DNA from: a virus
Reading direction: 5' to 3' (one strand)
Length of the DNA: 64,000 nucleotides
IMG/VR virus record: IMGVR_UViG_3300049489_001336
Coordinates: 64,001 to 128,000 of that record
A program made the translations under genes and the position numbers. The notes below the pieces were generated by a model. That model saw only the letters and a list, made by a program, of their open reading frames with translations, had not been told where the DNA came from and did not search any database. Position 1 is the stretch's first letter, and each line of letters begins with the position of its first letter. This document shows positions 3,450 through 54,292 of the stretch, piece by piece.

Positions 3450-3737
3450 TGGTAGGGACGGTCGGACTCGAACCGACAAGGTTTTTACACCGAAGGATTT
3501 TCTTACCACTACGACTTTCGTCGCCTTATGCTGTTTGTGGTCTGGACTATACCTTCACCGTACTCAAAAAGAGGTTAGGTGGCAGCCGTCTAGTCTCTAC
3601 ACGTTCCCTGTTCCAGGGCTTCGCTCGGTATTGCCATTTTACAGGTTTCACCGACTTTGACTGCATTCACGTCAAAGGTTTCCCTTTGAGTGCTCAATAT
3701 TTAAAGTCCTCTGCGTTTACCATTTCGCCACGCCCCC
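3450..3737 (-). tRNA. trnL: tRNA-Leu(UAA), intron-containing (exons 3704-3737 and 3450-3501)
   Basis: Exon 1 GGGGGCGUGGCGAAAUGGUAAACGCAGAGGACUU joined to exon 2 AAAAUCCUU...GGUUCGAGUCCGACCGUCCCUACCA gives anticodon loop CUUAAAA, a long variable arm and CCA. Confidence 0.93.
3502..3703 (-). mobile_element. group I intron (IC3-like, 202 nt, no ORF) between U34 and A35 of tRNA-Leu
   Basis: P1 CUU/GAG, P2 CUCAAAGG-GAAA-CCUUUGAC, P3 GCAGUC/GGCUGC, P4 UCGGU/ACCGA, P7 elements AGAGACUA and UAGUCC, P9 GAAA tetraloop, terminal G. Confidence 0.92.
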
Positions 3738-21069: not shown

Positions 21070-22812
21070 TTAGGCTTCTACGTTTTCAACCACTTCCGTG
21101 GGCGTTTCCGTGACCGCATTCTCAGGCATGACCAAGGGCAAAGCCTTGATCGTCTCCACCCAAGCCTTGGCGTCTTGTCCCTTCACGAAGTTTTCGATAA
21201 CGCCCCATACTGAATCATTGAAACCTCCAATGTTCAAGATGTCAGGGTCATCTGCAGCTTGCGTTGTCGTGTTCGGGGTTACGTCCAAACACACCAACTT
21301 GCAGTTGGCATTACGTGTTTGAATTTTGCGGAACAACTGCTCCATCTCTGTCGGACCTGTTTTGTTGGTCGTCAAGTAGTTGTAACGATTGTGCGCCAGA
21401 GTTGCCCACGATTCGTTGTCCGAAAAGAAAATGATCGTTTCAGCGTCTTCCTTTTTGTCAAGAATATGCTGAAGCCCAAGCTGCAAGCTTGTGCCACCGC
21501 CGCCACACGCTGCCAATTTCTTGGCGTTGGTCATCACCGAATCGAGTGGGTTGAGTTGCAAGCGTGTGTGCAGCGACGTATCGACAGGAATGACGCGGGC
21601 CCCAGGGGTGGTCCGCAGCACGCATGCCGCAAACAACGCGGCCACGTCGATACAACGCATTTTTGTGGTCGCAGACCCCCGTCCCCCTGTCACAGGCGAG
21701 CTCATGGAACCTGACACGTCCGGAAAAACCCAAACGTTGTCGCCGAAAGAAGGCGTATTTTTGGTAGCAATCTCAAGCGCGGCTTGTAGCGCCATTTTGA
21801 TGTCTACCGGGATTTCCGAATTATCTTCGGTCGCCAAATAGGCCATCAAGAGCTGATACGGAAAAACCCGCGCGCGCTGAATTTCTTCAGCGTTCGCAAG
21901 CTTCTCTGCAATCTTCTTTACGACAGCTTTGTCTTTCAGCACGCCATGGCGCTGAAACGTATTGAGGTTCATGCGCGTGAATTGCCATCCGCCATTGAGC
22001 GCGATCGTCGTCCAATCCGCCGTGGACAGAGGCAACGCCGTCAACATCTGGAAAGGAACCTGCGGTACTGTGAGGTTCTCCCCTGCCTTGTACTTTTCGT
22101 AGTCTTGGATGAGCTGCGGGAGTTCATCTTTCTTATAGAACTTCCGTCGCTCTTTCTGCTTCTCGTCGGCCTTGGCTTCCTCAGGGTAGCCTAACAGGTA
22201 TTTGAACGCGGAATCCCGTTGTTTGTCTTCGCCCGCTTTCACGTGGGCAAGACGGATGATGTCCGCCAGAGACGGCGACTCACCGACCGACGCACGGAAC
22301 AGCGCTGCGCCATTTCGCTTGTCGAACCACTGGTGAATAAGCCGTCGCGGCACGGTCCCCAGTGATTTACGCCCCGTCGTGCCCGAGCGAACAATCTGCA
22401 CGAAATTCCGCAGCATCTTATCATTGTCAATGGCGAGCGGAAATGCGCACTCCAACCATTTCTTGGCTTCATCGCGCGCTTCACCTTCCAACGTCTTACA
22501 ACGCGCCGCAAGCAGCGCGCAGAGAAGCGCAGGCATGTCTTTCATATGTCCCGACTTACGGGCATAAACAGCGCACTTCGCGATGTACTCACTAGTACAT
22601 TGCTCCGCGAACTCTTTGACCTTTTGTAGCTGGTCTTCAGGTGAAACGTAATAGGTCTGAGACAAGCACCCTGTTGCTGCAAGTTGCGCAAGGGCGTGTT
22701 CAGGGGTGAAAGCATAAGCTTTACCCCCTGCATTATTAATGGTATTGACAGTGCGCGCAGGCTTAGGTTGTTTTCCAGCCGTAGCAGAAGAAAAAAGCTG
22801 TTTATTAGCCAT
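21070..22812 (-). CDS. rsr: Ro60/TROVE-domain RNA-binding protein with C-terminal vWA domain
   Basis: TROVE hallmarks (N.AGG.AY, YAR..G.MKD.PA, SLAD.IR.AH.K, WQ..RMNLNTF.RHGV, A...PYQL) and MIDAS-type DVSGSM...GGGT....L...I.FSDNESW; ATG at 22812 preferred over the TTG at 22836. Confidence 0.93.
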   Translation of the reverse strand: MANKQLFSSATAGKQPKPARTVNTINNAGGKAYAFTPEHALAQLAATGCLSQTYYVSPEDQLQKVKEFAEQCTSEYIAKCAVYARKSGHMKDMPALLCALLAARCKTLEGEARDEAKKWLECAFPLAIDNDKMLRNFVQIVRSGTTGRKSLGTVPRRLIHQWFDKRNGAALFRASVGESPSLADIIRLAHVKAGEDKQRDSAFKYLLGYPEEAKADEKQKERRKFYKKDELPQLIQDYEKYKAGENLTVPQVPFQMLTALPLSTADWTTIALNGGWQFTRMNLNTFQRHGVLKDKAVVKKIAEKLANAEEIQRARVFPYQLLMAYLATEDNSEIPVDIKMALQAALEIATKNTPSFGDNVWVFPDVSGSMSSPVTGGRGSATTKMRCIDVAALFAACVLRTTPGARVIPVDTSLHTRLQLNPLDSVMTNAKKLAACGGGGTSLQLGLQHILDKKEDAETIIFFSDNESWATLAHNRYNYLTTNKTGPTEMEQLFRKIQTRNANCKLVCLDVTPNTTTQAADDPDILNIGGFNDSVWGVIENFVKGQDAKAWVETIKALPLVMPENAVTETPTEVVENVEA

Positions 22813-33545: not shown

Positions 33546-33655
33546 AGAGTAGCAAAAAGAGAAGAGTATCGAGCTACCAATGCTCGGTCTGCGGCATAAG
33601 AGGAGCCGCAGATTGGATTCGAACCAATAATGTACACCCTTCAGGCATCTACTCT
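33546..33655 (-). ncRNA. Y-RNA-like unit G with permuted tRNA-like domain
   Basis: Terminal helix AGAGUAG/CUACUCU; T arm AUUGG-UUCGAAU-CCAAU, then closed stem CUGCGGC/GCCGCAG, then D-like arm CGAGC-AUUGGUA-GCUCG. Confidence 0.8.
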
Positions 33656-34216: not shown

Positions 34217-34367
34217 AGCGGTAACAAAAAGTGAAAAGTCGTTTGGCTTTTGCTCTACCAACTGAGCTACCAGCCTGTAAAGACTTCTGTAAAGACTTCT
34301 GGCAGGCTGGGATGGACTCGAACCACCGACCCAAAGTGTGGATGTAGACCTTTCGGCATTTACCGCT
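34217..34367 (-). ncRNA. Y-RNA-like unit H (YrlA-type)
   Basis: Terminal helix AGCGGUAA/UUACCGCU, GCCGAAAG in the 5' strand, T arm, stem CCAGCCU/AGGCUGG with G-CCA in the closing loop, D arm UAGCUCAGUUGGUAGAGC. Confidence 0.85.
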
Positions 34368-34453
34368 GGTGCAGGAGGAAGGACTCGAACCTCCGAAGTG
34401 CTAAGCACATCTGGTTTACAGCCAGACCCCTTTGCCGCTCGGGACAATCCTGC
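34367..34453 (-). tRNA. trnY: tRNA-Tyr(GUA)
   Basis: Anticodon arm UCUGG-CUGUAAA-CCAGA, variable arm, CCA whose last A is the first base of unit H. Confidence 0.92.
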
Positions 34454-34458
34454 AAAAA

Positions 34459-34591
34459 GAAACAGCAAAATTAGAAGAGTTTATTTTATACTGGTTACCC
34501 AACGCCCCCATAGATTGGTGGAGGCAAGCGGATTCGAACCGCAACAGTCCTTTTGGTCAAAAAAGATGTAAACCCTTCAGGTATCTGTTTC
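34459..34591 (-). ncRNA. Y-RNA-like unit I with Ala-type acceptor stem
   Basis: Terminal helix GAAACAG/CUGUUUC; T loop UUCGAAU; UGCCUCC-A-CCA-AUCUAU-GGGGGCG. Confidence 0.78.
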
Positions 34592-52209: not shown

Positions 52210-52716
52210 CTACTCGAAGAGGTCTTCCGTAAGCGTTTTGATTTCGTGCTCCTCCGCATTGCCTTGAGCAATGGCAGCACGCATGGCACTCGCACGCTTG
52301 GCCGCACTCGTGGCATTTTTCAATGCATCACTTGCGCTGACCTGCGTCTGTGCGTAGATTTTGTTCGGGTCCCGCTCGTCTGCAGAATAGCCGTAGCGCT
52401 CTTTCTTGCTGCCTGTGGCTGAGCGCCACATCTTTTCTGCGCGGGCGAGGCCCCCAAGCGCCTTCACGGCAAAGCCCAAGGTGATCAATTCACCGTCAAA
52501 AGGCACTTTGACCTGAAGGTTGTACATCGCCTGTGCTTCTTGCAGCTTGGCAATGGCATACTCTGCCGCCAAATACTGCTTGACTGCATCGACGGGATGT
52601 TCCTTGGTTTCCCCAGGATAAATCTTCAACGAATCATCGAACACTCGGGAAGCCGCGTCTTTACGCAGCTCCCATTGTTTGATGGCTTCACGGATTTTGT
52701 AGCCAGTGACTTTCAC
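52210..52716 (-). CDS. helical hypothetical protein directly downstream of the large Y-like array
   Basis: 168-aa Ala-rich ORF. Confidence 0.7.
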   Translation of the reverse strand: MKVTGYKIREAIKQWELRKDAASRVFDDSLKIYPGETKEHPVDAVKQYLAAEYAIAKLQEAQAMYNLQVKVPFDGELITLGFAVKALGGLARAEKMWRSATGSKKERYGYSADERDPNKIYAQTQVSASDALKNATSAAKRASAMRAAIAQGNAEEHEIKTLTEDLFE

Positions 52717-52769
52717 AAAGCCTCACTAGATAGTAGATGAGAGATACTTATTTACTTTTACCGTACAAC

Positions 52770-52852
52770 AGCTAAAAAAATCGAATATCTGCACGGTCTT
52801 CCATGGGATTTCCCAGCATTACTGCTGAGTCACACCCCGTGCAGATATTCGA
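52770..52852 (-). terminator. long-stem hairpin (16 bp) with branched loop, followed by UUUUUUUAGC
   Basis: TCGAATATCTGCACGG (52781-52796) and CCGTGCAGATATTCGA (52837-52852). Confidence 0.7.
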
Positions 52853-52861
52853 AAAACAAGC

Positions 52862-52938
52862 GTGGAAGCAAACTTGCGATGTTCCGTTTTCGGATCCCTT
52901 TTGGGGAGCGTAGATGTAGACATCACGACATCTTCCAC
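52862..52938 (-). ncRNA. Y-RNA-like unit A (short, no tRNA domain)
   Basis: Terminal helix GUGGAAG/CUUCCAC with the shared AUG...GUCUACAU and UUUG core. Confidence 0.7.
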
Positions 52939-52948
52939 AAACTTAAAC

Positions 52949-53079
52949 GGCCAGCAAAGATTTGAGAAGTCTATTTTACGCGTGCTGCCATTACACCACC
53001 AACAGTGTTACCTGCTGGACAGGATTCGAACCTGCTCCTCGTCCGCCCAATGGATGTAAACCTCTCGGGGCATCTGGCC
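52949..53079 (-). ncRNA. Y-RNA-like unit B (permuted tRNA domain)
   Basis: GGCCAG/CUGGCC; T arm GCAGG-UUCGAAU-CCUGU; CCAGCAG/CUGUUGG; D arm GUGU-AAUGGCA-GCAC. Confidence 0.83.
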
Positions 53080-53090
53080 AAAACTTAAAC

Positions 53091-53224
53091 GGTCAGCAAA
53101 GATTGAAGAGTCTATTTACGCGCTCTACCACTGAGCTACCCCGGCATAGATGGCGCCAGGGGCAAGGATTTGAACCTTGCATCCTCGTCCTTAGCATGGA
53201 TGTAAACCCTTCGGGCATCTGACC
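53091..53224 (-). ncRNA. Y-RNA-like unit C (permuted tRNA domain)
   Basis: GGUCAG/CUGACC; GAAGGGUUUA/UAGACUCUUC; T arm; CCCUGGC-G-CCA-UCUAU-GCCGGGG; D arm UAGCUCAGUGGUAGAGC. Confidence 0.87.
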
Positions 53225-53234
53225 AAAACTTAAA

Positions 53235-53375
53235 GCGACAGCAAAAGGCGCAGTGTCTAAATCCCTTGCGGGAGTCTGCTGCTCTACTTTTGAGCTACAC
53301 GCTTAAACAACAAGCGTAACTGGATTTGAACCAGTAACCCGCAGATTTCAATGTAGACACTACTACATCTGTCGC
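53235..53375 (-). ncRNA. Y-RNA-like unit D (permuted tRNA domain)
   Basis: GCGACAG/CUGUCGC; GUAGUGUCUA/UAGACACUGC; UCUGC/GCAGA junction stem; T and D arms. Confidence 0.85.
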
Positions 53376-53386
53376 AGACACTAAAA

Positions 53387-53470
53387 GGGATAGCAAAGAG
53401 TTGTCGAGTTTAGCCCCTTGCGGAGCAATTTTCTTAGCCAGAAATGTAAACCCAACGGGGCATCTATCCC
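53387..53470 (-). ncRNA. Y-RNA-like unit E (short)
   Basis: GGGAUAG/CUAUCCC with shared core; no T or D arms. Confidence 0.72.
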
Positions 53471-53481
53471 AAAACTTAAAC

Positions 53482-53544
53482 GGGCAGCAAAGGATCGTCT
53501 GAGTCGCAATTACCAAAAATGTAGACCCAAACAAGCATCTGCCC
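53482..53544 (-). ncRNA. Y-RNA-like unit F (63 nt, minimal)
   Basis: GGGCAG/CUGCCC with shared core; GGGUCU/AGACUC-type inner pairing. Confidence 0.68.
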
Positions 53545-53614
53545 AAAACTTCTTTACCTCTCGATGCTCAAGCTGTCAAGCGAGCGTCGGAGAGGTCTAT
53601 ATTCTTATACCTAA

Positions 53615-54292
53615 TTAATCCTGTTTTTTCTTAGGATTAACTCGTTTTTCTTTTTTGTCTTCGCTCTCAAGAAAATCCATCGTCCTCTTGATGCTGACAA
53701 ACACAAGCTCACGCATAGACTGCGGATACCCAGCCTTGCCCTTGTGCTTCTCCAGATACGTAGAGATGCGCTTATGCAGGTCCAGAGGGATAGGCAAGCC
53801 CATCGTCTTAAACTTCATAGTGCGTTGCTTCTCGGTGAGACGGTACGTGGAAAAGAACTCCAACACGTTAAAAGACACGCTTGGAGCTTCGCCTGGCGCC
53901 TGTTCGGGCTCAGGCACAATCACAACTTCAACAGATTCAACGGGAGCTTCAAGCATAAGAGGCTCGGGCTCAACCACAACAAGTTCTAGGGTTTCAAAAC
54001 TTGGTTCTTGCACCGTTGCAGGTACAGAGCTACTCTCTACGCGGGGTAGTGTATCTTCTACGAAAGATATTTCGGTAGGAGGCGCTTCTTCAATCGCCCA
54101 GGTCCCTGACTCTTCTAGCGAAGGCTCCTCTACTACAGGAGCCGGCGGAGGAGTTTTGTTTTTGGCCTTGGCTTTTTTCTTTGGCTTTGCAGCCACGACA
54201 GGCGCTTCGACCGACGCAGCTTGTGCCTTTGGCGCTTGCCCTCGGAGTTGCTGCTCAGCCTTTAGATACCGTTCAATCTGGGACAGGAACAT
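53615..54292 (-). CDS. protein with long disordered N-terminus and C-terminal ribbon-helix-helix-like domain
   Basis: About 150 Pro/Glu/Ser-rich residues, then FKTMGLPIP (strand), LDLHKRISTYLEKH (helix), MRELVFVSIKRTMD (helix). Confidence 0.55.
   Translation of the reverse strand: MFLSQIERYLKAEQQLRGQAPKAQAASVEAPVVAAKPKKKAKAKNKTPPPAPVVEEPSLEESGTWAIEEAPPTEISFVEDTLPRVESSSVPATVQEPSFETLELVVVEPEPLMLEAPVESVEVVIVPEPEQAPGEAPSVSFNVLEFFSTYRLTEKQRTMKFKTMGLPIPLDLHKRISTYLEKHKGKAGYPQSMRELVFVSIKRTMDFLESEDKKEKRVNPKKKQD

What the first reader, a model, noticed from the sequence alone, without database searches (positions are those of the whole stretch)
52862..53544. Six-unit polycistronic array mixing full and minimal Y-like RNAs with a conserved 10-11-nt spacer
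Seen: units of 63, 84, 141, 134, 131 and 77 nt in transcript order, mostly separated by GUUUAAGUUU(U). Units A, E and F keep only the scaffold and lack T and D arms. Known: some bacteria encode a second Y RNA without the tRNA domain. Inference: a repeat-like ncRNA array processed at U-rich spacers into scaffold-only and tRNA-mimic RNAs. The constant scaffold with variable payload is conceptually like a guide or adaptor array, although it is not CRISPR.
Basis: partly seen in the sequence, partly recalled or inferred. Interest (0 to 1): 0.75.

Follow-up and report, generated by a model that had tools for sequence, protein, structure and literature searches.

The report
Six-gene Y RNA array in phage
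A 190-kb uncultured phage carries six back-to-back genes for small Y-type RNAs, the partner RNAs of the Ro60 (Rsr) ring protein that it also encodes; such arrays turn out to be common beside Ro60 genes in phages and bacteria, so this is a clear but fairly ordinary example, unusual mainly for lying 30 kb from its protein gene.

Summary
On the minus strand, 53544-52862 holds six units of 63, 84, 141, 134, 131 and 77 nt. Spacers are 10-11 nt, and four of five contain UUUAAGUUU. A promoter-like site lies upstream and a hairpin plus U7 terminator downstream.

All six share one scaffold. Units 3-5 add a permuted tRNA-like module (T arm, closed acceptor stem, D arm) and match Rfam YrlA below its threshold. 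Units 1, 2 and 6 lack it, like YrlB.

The phage encodes a full Ro60/Rsr gene (22812-21070, same strand). It has three more units near 34 kb, two of them flanking tRNA-Tyr.

A model built from these units finds 214 units beside rsr in 69 phage loci and 315 in 80 bacterial loci, all on the rsr strand. It finds none in 1.25 Mb of control DNA. Arrays of 5-10 units are frequent there, so array size is not special. The spacer sequence is not conserved in relatives; only its A/U-richness and length are.

Best reading: one transcript cut into six Rsr adaptor RNAs. Processing and Rsr binding are inferred, not shown.

This scan has reported Y RNA arrays on other DNA many times. New here: the array is about 30 kb from rsr, and the nine units sit in three places.

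The parts
53551..53579 (-). Promoter-like site: TTGACA (53579-53574), 17-nt spacer, TAAAGA (53556-53551), then 6 nt (AGUUUU) before unit 1
   Evidence: Read from the sequence. The consensus scan missed it because the -10 hexamer matches only 3 of 6. L006 has TTGACA-17-TACTAT ahead of its array. Inferred, not shown.
53482..53544 (-). Unit 1, 63 nt, short (YrlB-like): scaffold plus an 18-nt loop
   Evidence: R1 44.8 bits, R2 44.5 bits; fold.
53471..53481 (-). Spacer 1, GUUUAAGUUUU
53387..53470 (-). Unit 2, 84 nt, short: scaffold plus two small hairpins, one closed by a GCAA tetraloop
   Evidence: R1 68.1 bits; fold.
53376..53386 (-). Spacer 2, UUUUAGUGUCU (the divergent one)
53235..53375 (-). 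Unit 3, 141 nt, YrlA-like: T arm, 7-bp closed acceptor-like stem, D arm, plus a CCC-GCAA-GGG hairpin
   Evidence: Rfam YrlA 34.1 bits, E = 3.5e-5; R1 90.8 bits; permuted module found.
53225..53234 (-). Spacer 3, UUUAAGUUUU
53091..53224 (-). Unit 4, 134 nt, YrlA-like. The acceptor 3' strand is followed by an encoded G-CCA, then a UCUAU linker, then the acceptor 5' strand and the D arm
   Evidence: Rfam YrlA 42.7 bits, E = 1.2e-7; R1 108.5 bits; sequence read.
53080..53090 (-). Spacer 4, GUUUAAGUUUU
52949..53079 (-). Unit 5, 131 nt, YrlA-like (T arm, 7-bp closed acceptor-like stem, D arm)
   Evidence: Rfam YrlA 25.8 bits, E = 0.0086; R1 107.8 bits.
52939..52948 (-). Spacer 5, GUUUAAGUUU
52862..52938 (-). 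Unit 6, 77 nt, short: scaffold plus two small hairpins
   Evidence: R1 48.4 bits, R2 34.8 bits; fold.
52774..52852 (-). Terminator-like element: 16-bp perfect inverted repeat with 40 nt between the arms, followed by U7
   Evidence: Inverted repeat I1; sequence; paired in the whole-transcript fold.
34460..34590 (-). Seventh unit, with T arm and encoded A-CCA, 6 nt upstream of tRNA-Tyr
   Evidence: R1 52.9 bits, R2 65 bits; sequence.
34367..34453 (-). tRNA-Tyr(GUA) set between two Y-like units
   Evidence: ARAGORN and Rfam tRNA.
34218..34366 (-). Eighth unit, YrlA-like. It starts directly after the CCA of tRNA-Tyr, encodes G-CCA in its acceptor loop, and is followed by a terminator
   Evidence: Rfam YrlA 58.2 bits, E = 9e-14; R1 95.3 bits.
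33547..33654 (-). Ninth unit, YrlA-like, standing alone, followed by UUUAAUUUU and a terminator
   Evidence: R1 83.5 bits; sequence.
21070..22812 (-). rsr: Ro60 ortholog of 580 aa (TROVE plus Ro60-type vWA domain), the presumed protein partner
   Evidence: Pfam PF25045 E = 7e-14 and PF05731 E = 2e-7; about 48-50% identical to bacterial TROVE/Ro60 proteins; PDB 2NVO (D. radiodurans Rsr) E = 2e-14.

Best explanation
The stretch is a self-contained transcription unit on the minus strand. It encodes six different Y RNAs, the partner RNAs of the phage's own Ro60/Rsr ring protein.

Each unit has a unit-specific 6-7-bp terminal helix and a conserved internal loop (AUG(C) opposite UUUG). An inner helix follows, ending in G(U/C)UUAC-AU and containing a conserved G-U pair. 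This shared handle is the presumed Rsr-binding site.

The distal end differs between units. Three carry a permuted tRNA-like module (T arm, closed acceptor stem, D arm, no anticodon arm) and three carry short hairpins.

Most likely course (inferred): transcription starts just upstream of unit 1 and stops at the hairpin plus U7. Host endonucleases cut in the A/U-rich spacers, where AAG|UUUU fits the RNase E preference. Exonucleases then trim back to the terminal helices. Each RNA is stabilised by Rsr and acts as an adaptor or gate that links the ring to different partners, such as PNPase or tRNA-binding enzymes.

Shown here: the anatomy, the covariation, the likeness to YrlA, and the tight genomic association of this RNA family with rsr. 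Inferred: transcription, cleavage, Rsr binding and function.
For: - Likeness to YrlA: the Rfam YrlA model matches units 4, 3 and 5 end to end (42.7, 34.1 and 25.8 bits; E = 1e-7 to 9e-3 in a 1.8-kb search). It matches a sister unit at 58.2 bits.
- Count in this genome: models R1 and R2 each find exactly nine units in the 190-kb genome, all on the rsr strand, and none of its tRNAs.
- Covariation: the scaffold helices are 94% paired in 13 units and 90% in 62 units from 33 sources. There are 55 and 308 doubly changed cells; 0 of 500 shuffles reach these values, and slid controls give 35-50% pairing.
- Protein partner: a full-length rsr is present.
- Association with rsr: R2 gives 214 hits in 69 phage rsr loci and 315 hits in 80 bacterial rsr loci, every one on the rsr strand. 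It gives 0 hits in 740 kb plus 507 kb of unrelated contigs.
- Nearest relative with an array: L006 has four units (short, short, YrlA-like, short) directly 3' of rsr.
- Processing: in L030, L009 and this phage, units abut tRNA genes within 0-4 nt, so tRNA-processing cuts would create their ends. M. smegmatis YrlA and YrlB are processed from one precursor (PMC4201824).
- Modularity: the whole transcript folds into six independent modules.
Against: - No unit reaches Rfam's curated YrlA threshold of 69 bits.
- The published 5' motif GNCGAAN0-1G is replaced here by GNCAGAUG.
- The array lies about 30 kb from rsr, whereas published Y RNAs lie within 4 kb (PMC4201824).
- There are no expression, end-mapping or binding data.
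- The -10 element of the proposed promoter is weak.
- The phage has no RtcB or CCA-adding enzyme that would hint at a pathway.
Confidence: 0.8

Rival explanations
1. The tRNA-like units act mainly without Rsr, as decoys. They have tRNA elbows (T and D arms) but no anticodon loop. They could soak up host tRNA-targeting defence nucleases or tRNA-binding enzymes during infection, with the shared stem serving only as a stable clamp.
For: - Three of six array units and six of nine in the genome carry the tRNA-like module.
- The units sit among phage tRNA genes here and in relatives.
- Hughes et al. suggested that YrlA might compete with an anticodon nuclease (PMC7790460).
Against: - The three short units have no tRNA-like part, yet they keep the same conserved handle.
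- This RNA family was found only beside rsr, with 0 hits in 1.25 Mb of control DNA.
- The two ideas are not exclusive, since Rsr-bound RNAs could also act as decoys.
Confidence: 0.1
2. The transcript is not cut. It works as one roughly 770-nt multi-domain RNA that lines up several Rsr rings into a higher-order particle.
For: - Thermus phage phiLo Ro60 forms dimers and higher-order complexes with its Y-like RNAs (PMC12135203).
- The whole transcript folds as beads on a string.
- The spacers are short (10-11 nt).
Against: - In relatives, the same kind of unit directly abuts tRNAs, which must be excised.
- A standalone unit (33654-33547) has its own terminator.
- M. smegmatis Y RNAs are cut from a common precursor (PMC4201824).
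- The spacers are single-stranded and A/U-rich, which is typical of endonuclease sites.
Confidence: 0.07
3. The region is a decayed or rearranged tRNA gene cluster, or a chance repeat, with no function of its own.
For: - An Rfam tRNA match of 28.7 bits (threshold 29) straddles units 4 and 5.
- YrlA is thought to derive from dimeric tRNA transcripts (bioRxiv 10.1101/312249).
Against: - ARAGORN finds no tRNA here.
- All helices are intact and show compensatory changes.
- The same architecture recurs in more than 140 rsr loci.
- The short units have no tRNA parts.
Confidence: 0.02

Closest known systems
YrlA (Rfam RF02553; S. Typhimurium, M. smegmatis, mycobacteriophages; Chen et al. 2014, PMC4201824)
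   Same: - Terminal helix joining the 5' and 3' ends, with an AUGC loop.
- Distal module in the order T arm, closed acceptor-like stem, D arm, with no anticodon arm.
- Encoded on the rsr strand in a genome that has rsr.
- In M. smegmatis, RNase P cuts in the acceptor loop and CCA is added. Here units 4, 7 and 8 already encode N-CCA at that spot, usually followed by a linker ending in UAU.
   Different: - Scores below Rfam's threshold.
- The 5' motif is CAGAUG rather than CGAAUG.
- Three YrlA-like copies in one array and six in the genome.
- 11-31 kb from rsr instead of within 4 kb.
YrlB / Yrn2-type short Y RNAs (S. Typhimurium, M. smegmatis, D. radiodurans; PMC4201824)
   Same: Units 1, 2 and 6 keep the Rsr-type handle but lack the tRNA-like domain. 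They are co-encoded with the YrlA-like units, as YrlB is with YrlA, and in M. smegmatis the two are cut from one precursor.
   Different: - No sequence likeness to Rfam YrlB (19 bits against a threshold of 97); the literature found YrlB orthologs only in S. enterica serovars (PMC4201824).
- Three different short forms rather than one.
Thermus phage phiLo Ro60 with Yrl1 and Yrl2 (PMC12135203; PDB 9KOP, 9L5Y)
   Same: A phage-encoded Ro60 with phage-encoded Y-like RNAs. It was shown in vitro to bind them and to form a complex with host PNPase.
   Different: - phiLo has two RNAs, directly upstream of its Ro60 gene. This phage has nine, in three places and none adjacent.
- The proteins are only distantly related (E = 1.6e-9).
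Multi-unit Y RNA arrays beside rsr found here (phage L016 with 10 units, L009 about 11, L030 7; bacterial L303 with 8, Labrys L318 with 5, Alysiella L363 with 5)
   Same: The same scaffold family, mixed long and short units, short spacers, same strand as rsr, often interleaved with tRNAs.
   Different: - Those arrays touch rsr; this one is detached.
- Its spacers are unusually uniform in sequence.

Membership tests
YrlA (Rfam RF02553) | Score at or above Rfam's gathering threshold (69 bits) | tested here: not met
   42.7, 34.1 and 25.8 bits for units 4, 3 and 5; 58.2 bits for the unit at 34366-34218. The E-values are significant, but all scores are below the curated cut-off.
YrlA (Chen et al. 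2014 criteria) | A Ro60/Rsr (TROVE) gene in the same genome, on the same strand | tested here: met
   rsr lies at 22812-21070 on the minus strand. All nine units are on the minus strand.
YrlA (Chen et al. 2014 criteria) | Encoded within about 4 kb of rsr | tested here: not met
   The array lies about 30 kb from rsr. The nearest unit (33654-33547) is 10.7 kb away, and no unit is adjacent.
YrlA (Chen et al. 2014 criteria) | GNCGAAN0-1G motif near the 5' end | tested here: not met
   The units read G-N-C-A-G-A-U-G (or GGUAAAUG), which is two mismatches. Relatives in other phages and in bacteria do carry CGAAUGC at the same place in the same scaffold.
YrlA (Chen et al. 2014 criteria) | tRNA-like domain: conserved T arm and D arm flanking a closed acceptor-like stem | tested here: met
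   Units 3, 4 and 5 have GGUUC(A/G)AAUCC T loops, 7-bp closed stems and GCUC-N7-GAGC-type D arms.
Y RNA in general | 5' and 3' ends paired in a long stem carrying the Ro-binding site, supported by covariation | tested here: met
   Helix 1 is 98-100% paired, with compensatory changes in all six pairs. Helix 2 is 85-90% paired.
Y RNA in general | Physically bound and stabilised by Ro60/Rsr | not testable with these tools
   No tool here tests RNA-protein binding. The only support is co-occurrence: 529 hits beside rsr against 0 in control DNA.
YrlB (Rfam RF02565) | Score at or above the gathering threshold (97 bits) | tested here: not met
   Best match is 19.1 bits, E = 1.4, over unit 1. Resemblance is in design only: handle without a tRNA domain.
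tRNA | Cloverleaf with an anticodon arm, detected by ARAGORN or Rfam | tested here: not met
   ARAGORN finds no tRNA in 52700-53700. The only Rfam tRNA match (28.7 bits, below 29) joins halves of two neighbouring units.
Retron-like RNA arrays of the same phage (earlier notes) | Same repeated unit as those arrays | tested here: not met
   R1 and R2 hit only the nine units listed, and nothing elsewhere in the 190-kb genome.

The most novel reading that the evidence does not exclude
The phage has uncoupled its Y RNA genes from rsr and spread nine different adaptors over three transcription units: one pure array, one tRNA-embedded pair and one solo gene. Different sets of adaptors could then be made at different times of infection, redirecting a single Rsr ring to different host partners (PNPase, tRNA enzymes, defence nucleases). 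More broadly, large banks of diversified Y RNAs (5-10 per locus) would be the normal state of the Rsr system in many bacteria and jumbo phages. The papers I could read describe two characterised Y RNAs per bacterium or phage.
Probability: 0.25. Interest if true: 0.6.

Novelty: new member of a known kind. Interest (0 to 1): 0.35.

Why it matters
Ro60 and Y RNAs are a conserved but poorly understood RNA-surveillance particle. The papers I could read describe two characterised Y RNAs per bacterium or phage.

This locus shows one Rsr gene serving a set of nine partner RNAs that share a handle and differ in their heads. The roughly 150 related loci found here show that multi-unit sets are common in both phages and bacteria.

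The models built here detect many units that Rfam's thresholds miss. Myxococcus phage Mx1, which is cultured, carries two unannotated units 11.5 kb from its rsr and offers a system to test processing and function.

For this particular finding the added value is modest: a clean example with an unusual detached layout and unusually uniform spacers.

Tried and rejected
- **Close relatives by DNA or flanking protein.** The array has no match in 50,697 phage records. The upstream flanking protein has no relative in IMG/VR. A scaffold pattern gave no exact match in IMG/VR.
- **Pattern scans for the unit-spacer junction.** Scans in IMG/VR and in metagenomes returned only single, chance-level matches, and none of those loci holds a unit. 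They served as negative controls, but no close relative of the array was found. Unit number and payload could therefore not be compared in a near relative.
- **Contigs with the closest Rsr proteins.** The contigs with 72% and 58% identical Rsr have no unit within reach. Three contigs carrying the 61% identical protein had no DNA available.
- **Candidate tenth unit.** A regex candidate at 23450-23352, just upstream of rsr, lies inside an ORF and is not found by either model. I rejected it.
- **Guide hypothesis.** The longest complementary runs between the short-unit payloads and the phage genome (10-11 nt) equal what shuffled payloads give. The host genome is unknown, so host targets were not tested.
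- **RNA repair context.** The phage has no RtcB and no CCA-adding enzyme. Pfam found nothing in the genes flanking the array.
- **Literature.** The two Wolin-lab reviews (PMC10870794, PMC6047535) are not held, and the supplementary tables of Chen et al. 2014 are not held. I therefore cannot exclude that multi-copy Y RNA loci are mentioned there. One literature search was badly framed and gave nothing useful.

Full report
**1. What is there**

Read on the minus strand, window 53544-52862 contains six units. Each is closed by its own perfectly complementary 6-7-bp terminal helix.

| Unit | Coordinates | Length |
|---|---|---|
| U1 | 53544-53482 | 63 nt |
| U2 | 53470-53387 | 84 nt |
| U3 | 53375-53235 | 141 nt |
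| U4 | 53224-53091 | 134 nt |
| U5 | 53079-52949 | 131 nt |
| U6 | 52938-52862 | 77 nt |

The spacers are GUUUAAGUUUU, UUUUAGUGUCU, UUUAAGUUUU, GUUUAAGUUUU and GUUUAAGUUU. Four of the five TTTAAGTTT sites in the 64-kb window are these spacers, against 1.17 expected by chance.

Upstream lies TTGACA, a 17-nt spacer and TAAAGA, with 6 nt before U1. Downstream lies a 16-bp inverted repeat followed by U7. The layout looks like an independent transcription unit. The full 791-nt transcript folds into six separate modules with unpaired spacers, z = -3.76.

**2. What the units are**

All six share one scaffold:
- a terminal helix;
- an internal loop, AUG(C) opposite UUUG;
- an inner helix ending in G(U/C)UUAC-AU.

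U3, U4 and U5 add a T arm, a 7-bp stem closed by a short loop, and a D arm, in that order and with no anticodon arm. This is the permuted tRNA-like domain that defines YrlA (PMC4201824). The Rfam YrlA model aligns to them end to end at 42.7, 34.1 and 25.8 bits, with E = 1e-7 to 9e-3 in the local search. All three are below the 69-bit curated threshold. ARAGORN calls no tRNA here. U1, U2 and U6 keep only the scaffold and small hairpins, like YrlB.

In U4, the acceptor 3' strand is followed by an encoded G-CCA, a UCUAU linker and the acceptor 5' strand. The same N-CCA arrangement occurs in two sister units and in several relatives. This fits the published idea that YrlA arose from a dimeric tRNA transcript (bioRxiv 10.1101/312249). 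It also marks the place where RNase P cuts M. smegmatis YrlA (PMC4201824).

**3. The protein partner and the other units**

The window belongs to a 189,879-bp IMG/VR virus record rated complete. It encodes a 580-aa Ro60/Rsr protein at 22812-21070 on the same strand. The protein has a TROVE domain and a Ro60-type vWA domain. It is about 48-50% identical to many bacterial TROVE proteins and related to D. radiodurans Rsr, PDB 2NVO.

I built a covariance model from the units (R1), then a broader one (R2). Each finds exactly nine units in the genome, all on the minus strand:
- the six units of the array;
- 34590-34460 and 34366-34218, which flank tRNA-Tyr. The second starts right after the tRNA's CCA and scores 58 bits on Rfam YrlA;
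- a solo unit at 33654-33547.

None lies next to rsr. A tenth candidate just upstream of rsr lies inside an ORF and was rejected.

**4. Is it more than chance?**

Across 13 units, the scaffold pairs are 94% standard pairs, with double changes in 12 of 16 pairs. Across 62 units from 33 sources, pairing is 90% with 308 doubly changed cells. No shuffle reaches these values, and sliding the 3' partner drops pairing to 35-50%. These alignments were fitted to the model, which favours the structure, but the margin is large.

**5. Relatives**

No close relative of the array was found by DNA search or through the flanking protein.

Searching through Rsr was more productive. A JGI contig whose Rsr is 60% identical (L006) has four units directly 3' of rsr, in the order short, short, YrlA-like, short, followed by tRNA-Asn.

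In 69 IMG/VR loci with rsr, R2 finds 214 units, every one on the rsr strand. Examples:
- L016 has ten units in 1.8 kb.
- L009 has about eleven.
- L030 has seven that alternate with tRNA genes at 0-4-nt junctions.

Units 12-50 kb from rsr also occur in other jumbo phages. In cultured Myxococcus phage Mx1, two unannotated units lie 11.5 kb from rsr.

The same holds in bacteria. In 80 rsr loci (Pyrinomonadaceae, Verrucomicrobia, Planctomycetes, Labrys, Alysiella, Neisseria shayeganii and others), R2 gives 315 hits, all on the rsr strand. Tandem arrays of 5-8 mixed-length units carry the canonical CGAAUGC motif.

The controls were clean: 0 hits in 740 kb and in 507 kb of unrelated contigs.

So the RNA family is tied to rsr, and multi-unit arrays are its usual form. 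The array's size is not exceptional.

**6. The spacer**

It is not met as worded. L006 has CUUUUUAUUUUG, CUUUGAUUUUUGA and UCUUUUUUUCUG. Other arrays have A/U-rich spacers of 8-18 nt. AAGUUU or UUUAAUUU recurs in a few: L016, L051, L018, and after the solo unit of this phage.

What is conserved is a short, single-stranded, A/U-rich linker. AAG|UUUU fits the RNase E preference (R-N|W-U-U; this is from my own knowledge). Where tRNAs flank the units, RNase P and the tRNA 3'-end machinery would make the cuts. All of this is inference.

**7. Mechanism**

Published work provides the following:
- Y RNAs bind Ro60 through the stem and use the other end to tether partners such as PNPase (bioRxiv 10.1101/312249; PMC4201824).
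- A phage Ro60 binds phage Y-like RNAs and host PNPase in vitro (PMC12135203).
- YrlA might compete with an anticodon nuclease (PMC7790460).

The most likely reading is therefore one transcript cut into six Rsr adaptor RNAs with different heads.

A guide-like role has no support. The payloads of the short units have no above-chance complementarity to the phage genome. The phage lacks RtcB and a CCA-adding enzyme.

**8. Novelty**

The kind is known: YrlA/YrlB-type Y RNAs, including polycistronic precursors and phage-encoded examples. I found no paper describing arrays of more than two units. However, two key reviews and the 2014 supplementary tables were not available to me.

This scan has already reported Y RNA arrays of up to ten units beside rsr on other DNA, and my own searches agree.

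Particular to this locus are three things: the roughly 30-kb separation from rsr, the nine units split over three places, and the near-identical spacers.

I rate it a new member of a known kind, of moderate-to-low interest.

Noticed in passing
window 34590-34218 (-): tRNA-Tyr(GUA) sits between two Y-like units: 6 nt after the first, with the second starting right at its CCA. A terminator follows. Maturing the tRNA would by itself create one end of each Y-like RNA.
   Followed up: partly
window 34300-34277 (-): The acceptor-loop linker of the unit at 34366-34218 contains a direct repeat, GAAGUCUUUACA twice in a row, right after an encoded G-CCA.
   Followed up: no
window 53440-53427, 53273-53260, 52911-52899 (-): Units 2 and 3 share a small CCC-GCAA-GGG hairpin with a GNRA tetraloop. 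Unit 6 has a similar CCCC-AAAA-GGG hairpin. This may be a common tertiary-contact or protein-binding element in otherwise different payloads.
   Followed up: no
window 3531-3713 (-): A group I intron match (Rfam RF00028, 56.5 bits, above threshold) lies beside tRNA-Val and tRNA-Pro in a cluster of seven phage tRNA genes at 2.5-9.7 kb.
   Followed up: no
L076 / OR576727.2 45170-45293 and 45522-45623 (+): Cultured Myxococcus phage Mx1 (169.6 kb; Rsr 44.5% identical) has two Y-like units (52 and 51 bits) that lie 11.5 kb upstream of its rsr and outside the stretch whose annotation I inspected. This offers a usable experimental system.
   Followed up: partly
L030 7592-11960; L009 11601-16482: In some rsr-bearing phages, Y-like units alternate one-for-one with tRNA genes at 0-4-nt junctions, inside arrays of more than 30 tRNAs. 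L009 also carries a tmRNA.
   Followed up: partly
L303 4373-5906; L348 3456-4244; L318 7624-8345; L363 5307-5929: Bacterial rsr loci (a Phycisphaerae MAG, Haloferula, Labrys okinawensis, Alysiella crassa) carry 5-8 tandem Y-like units. In Labrys the five terminal helices are nearly identical (CGGCGAAUGCCG), unlike the unit-specific helices in the phage.
   Followed up: partly
alignment A6, pairs 24-188 and 25-187: In the inner helix, a G-U wobble (48 of 62 units) next to a G-C pair (59 of 62) is conserved across phages. It is a candidate recognition point for Rsr.
   Followed up: no
window 22812 vs 22836 (-): The longest rsr ORF starts at a TTG (22836). The ATG at 22812 gives the 580-aa protein that matches the homologs from their first residue.
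   Followed up: partly
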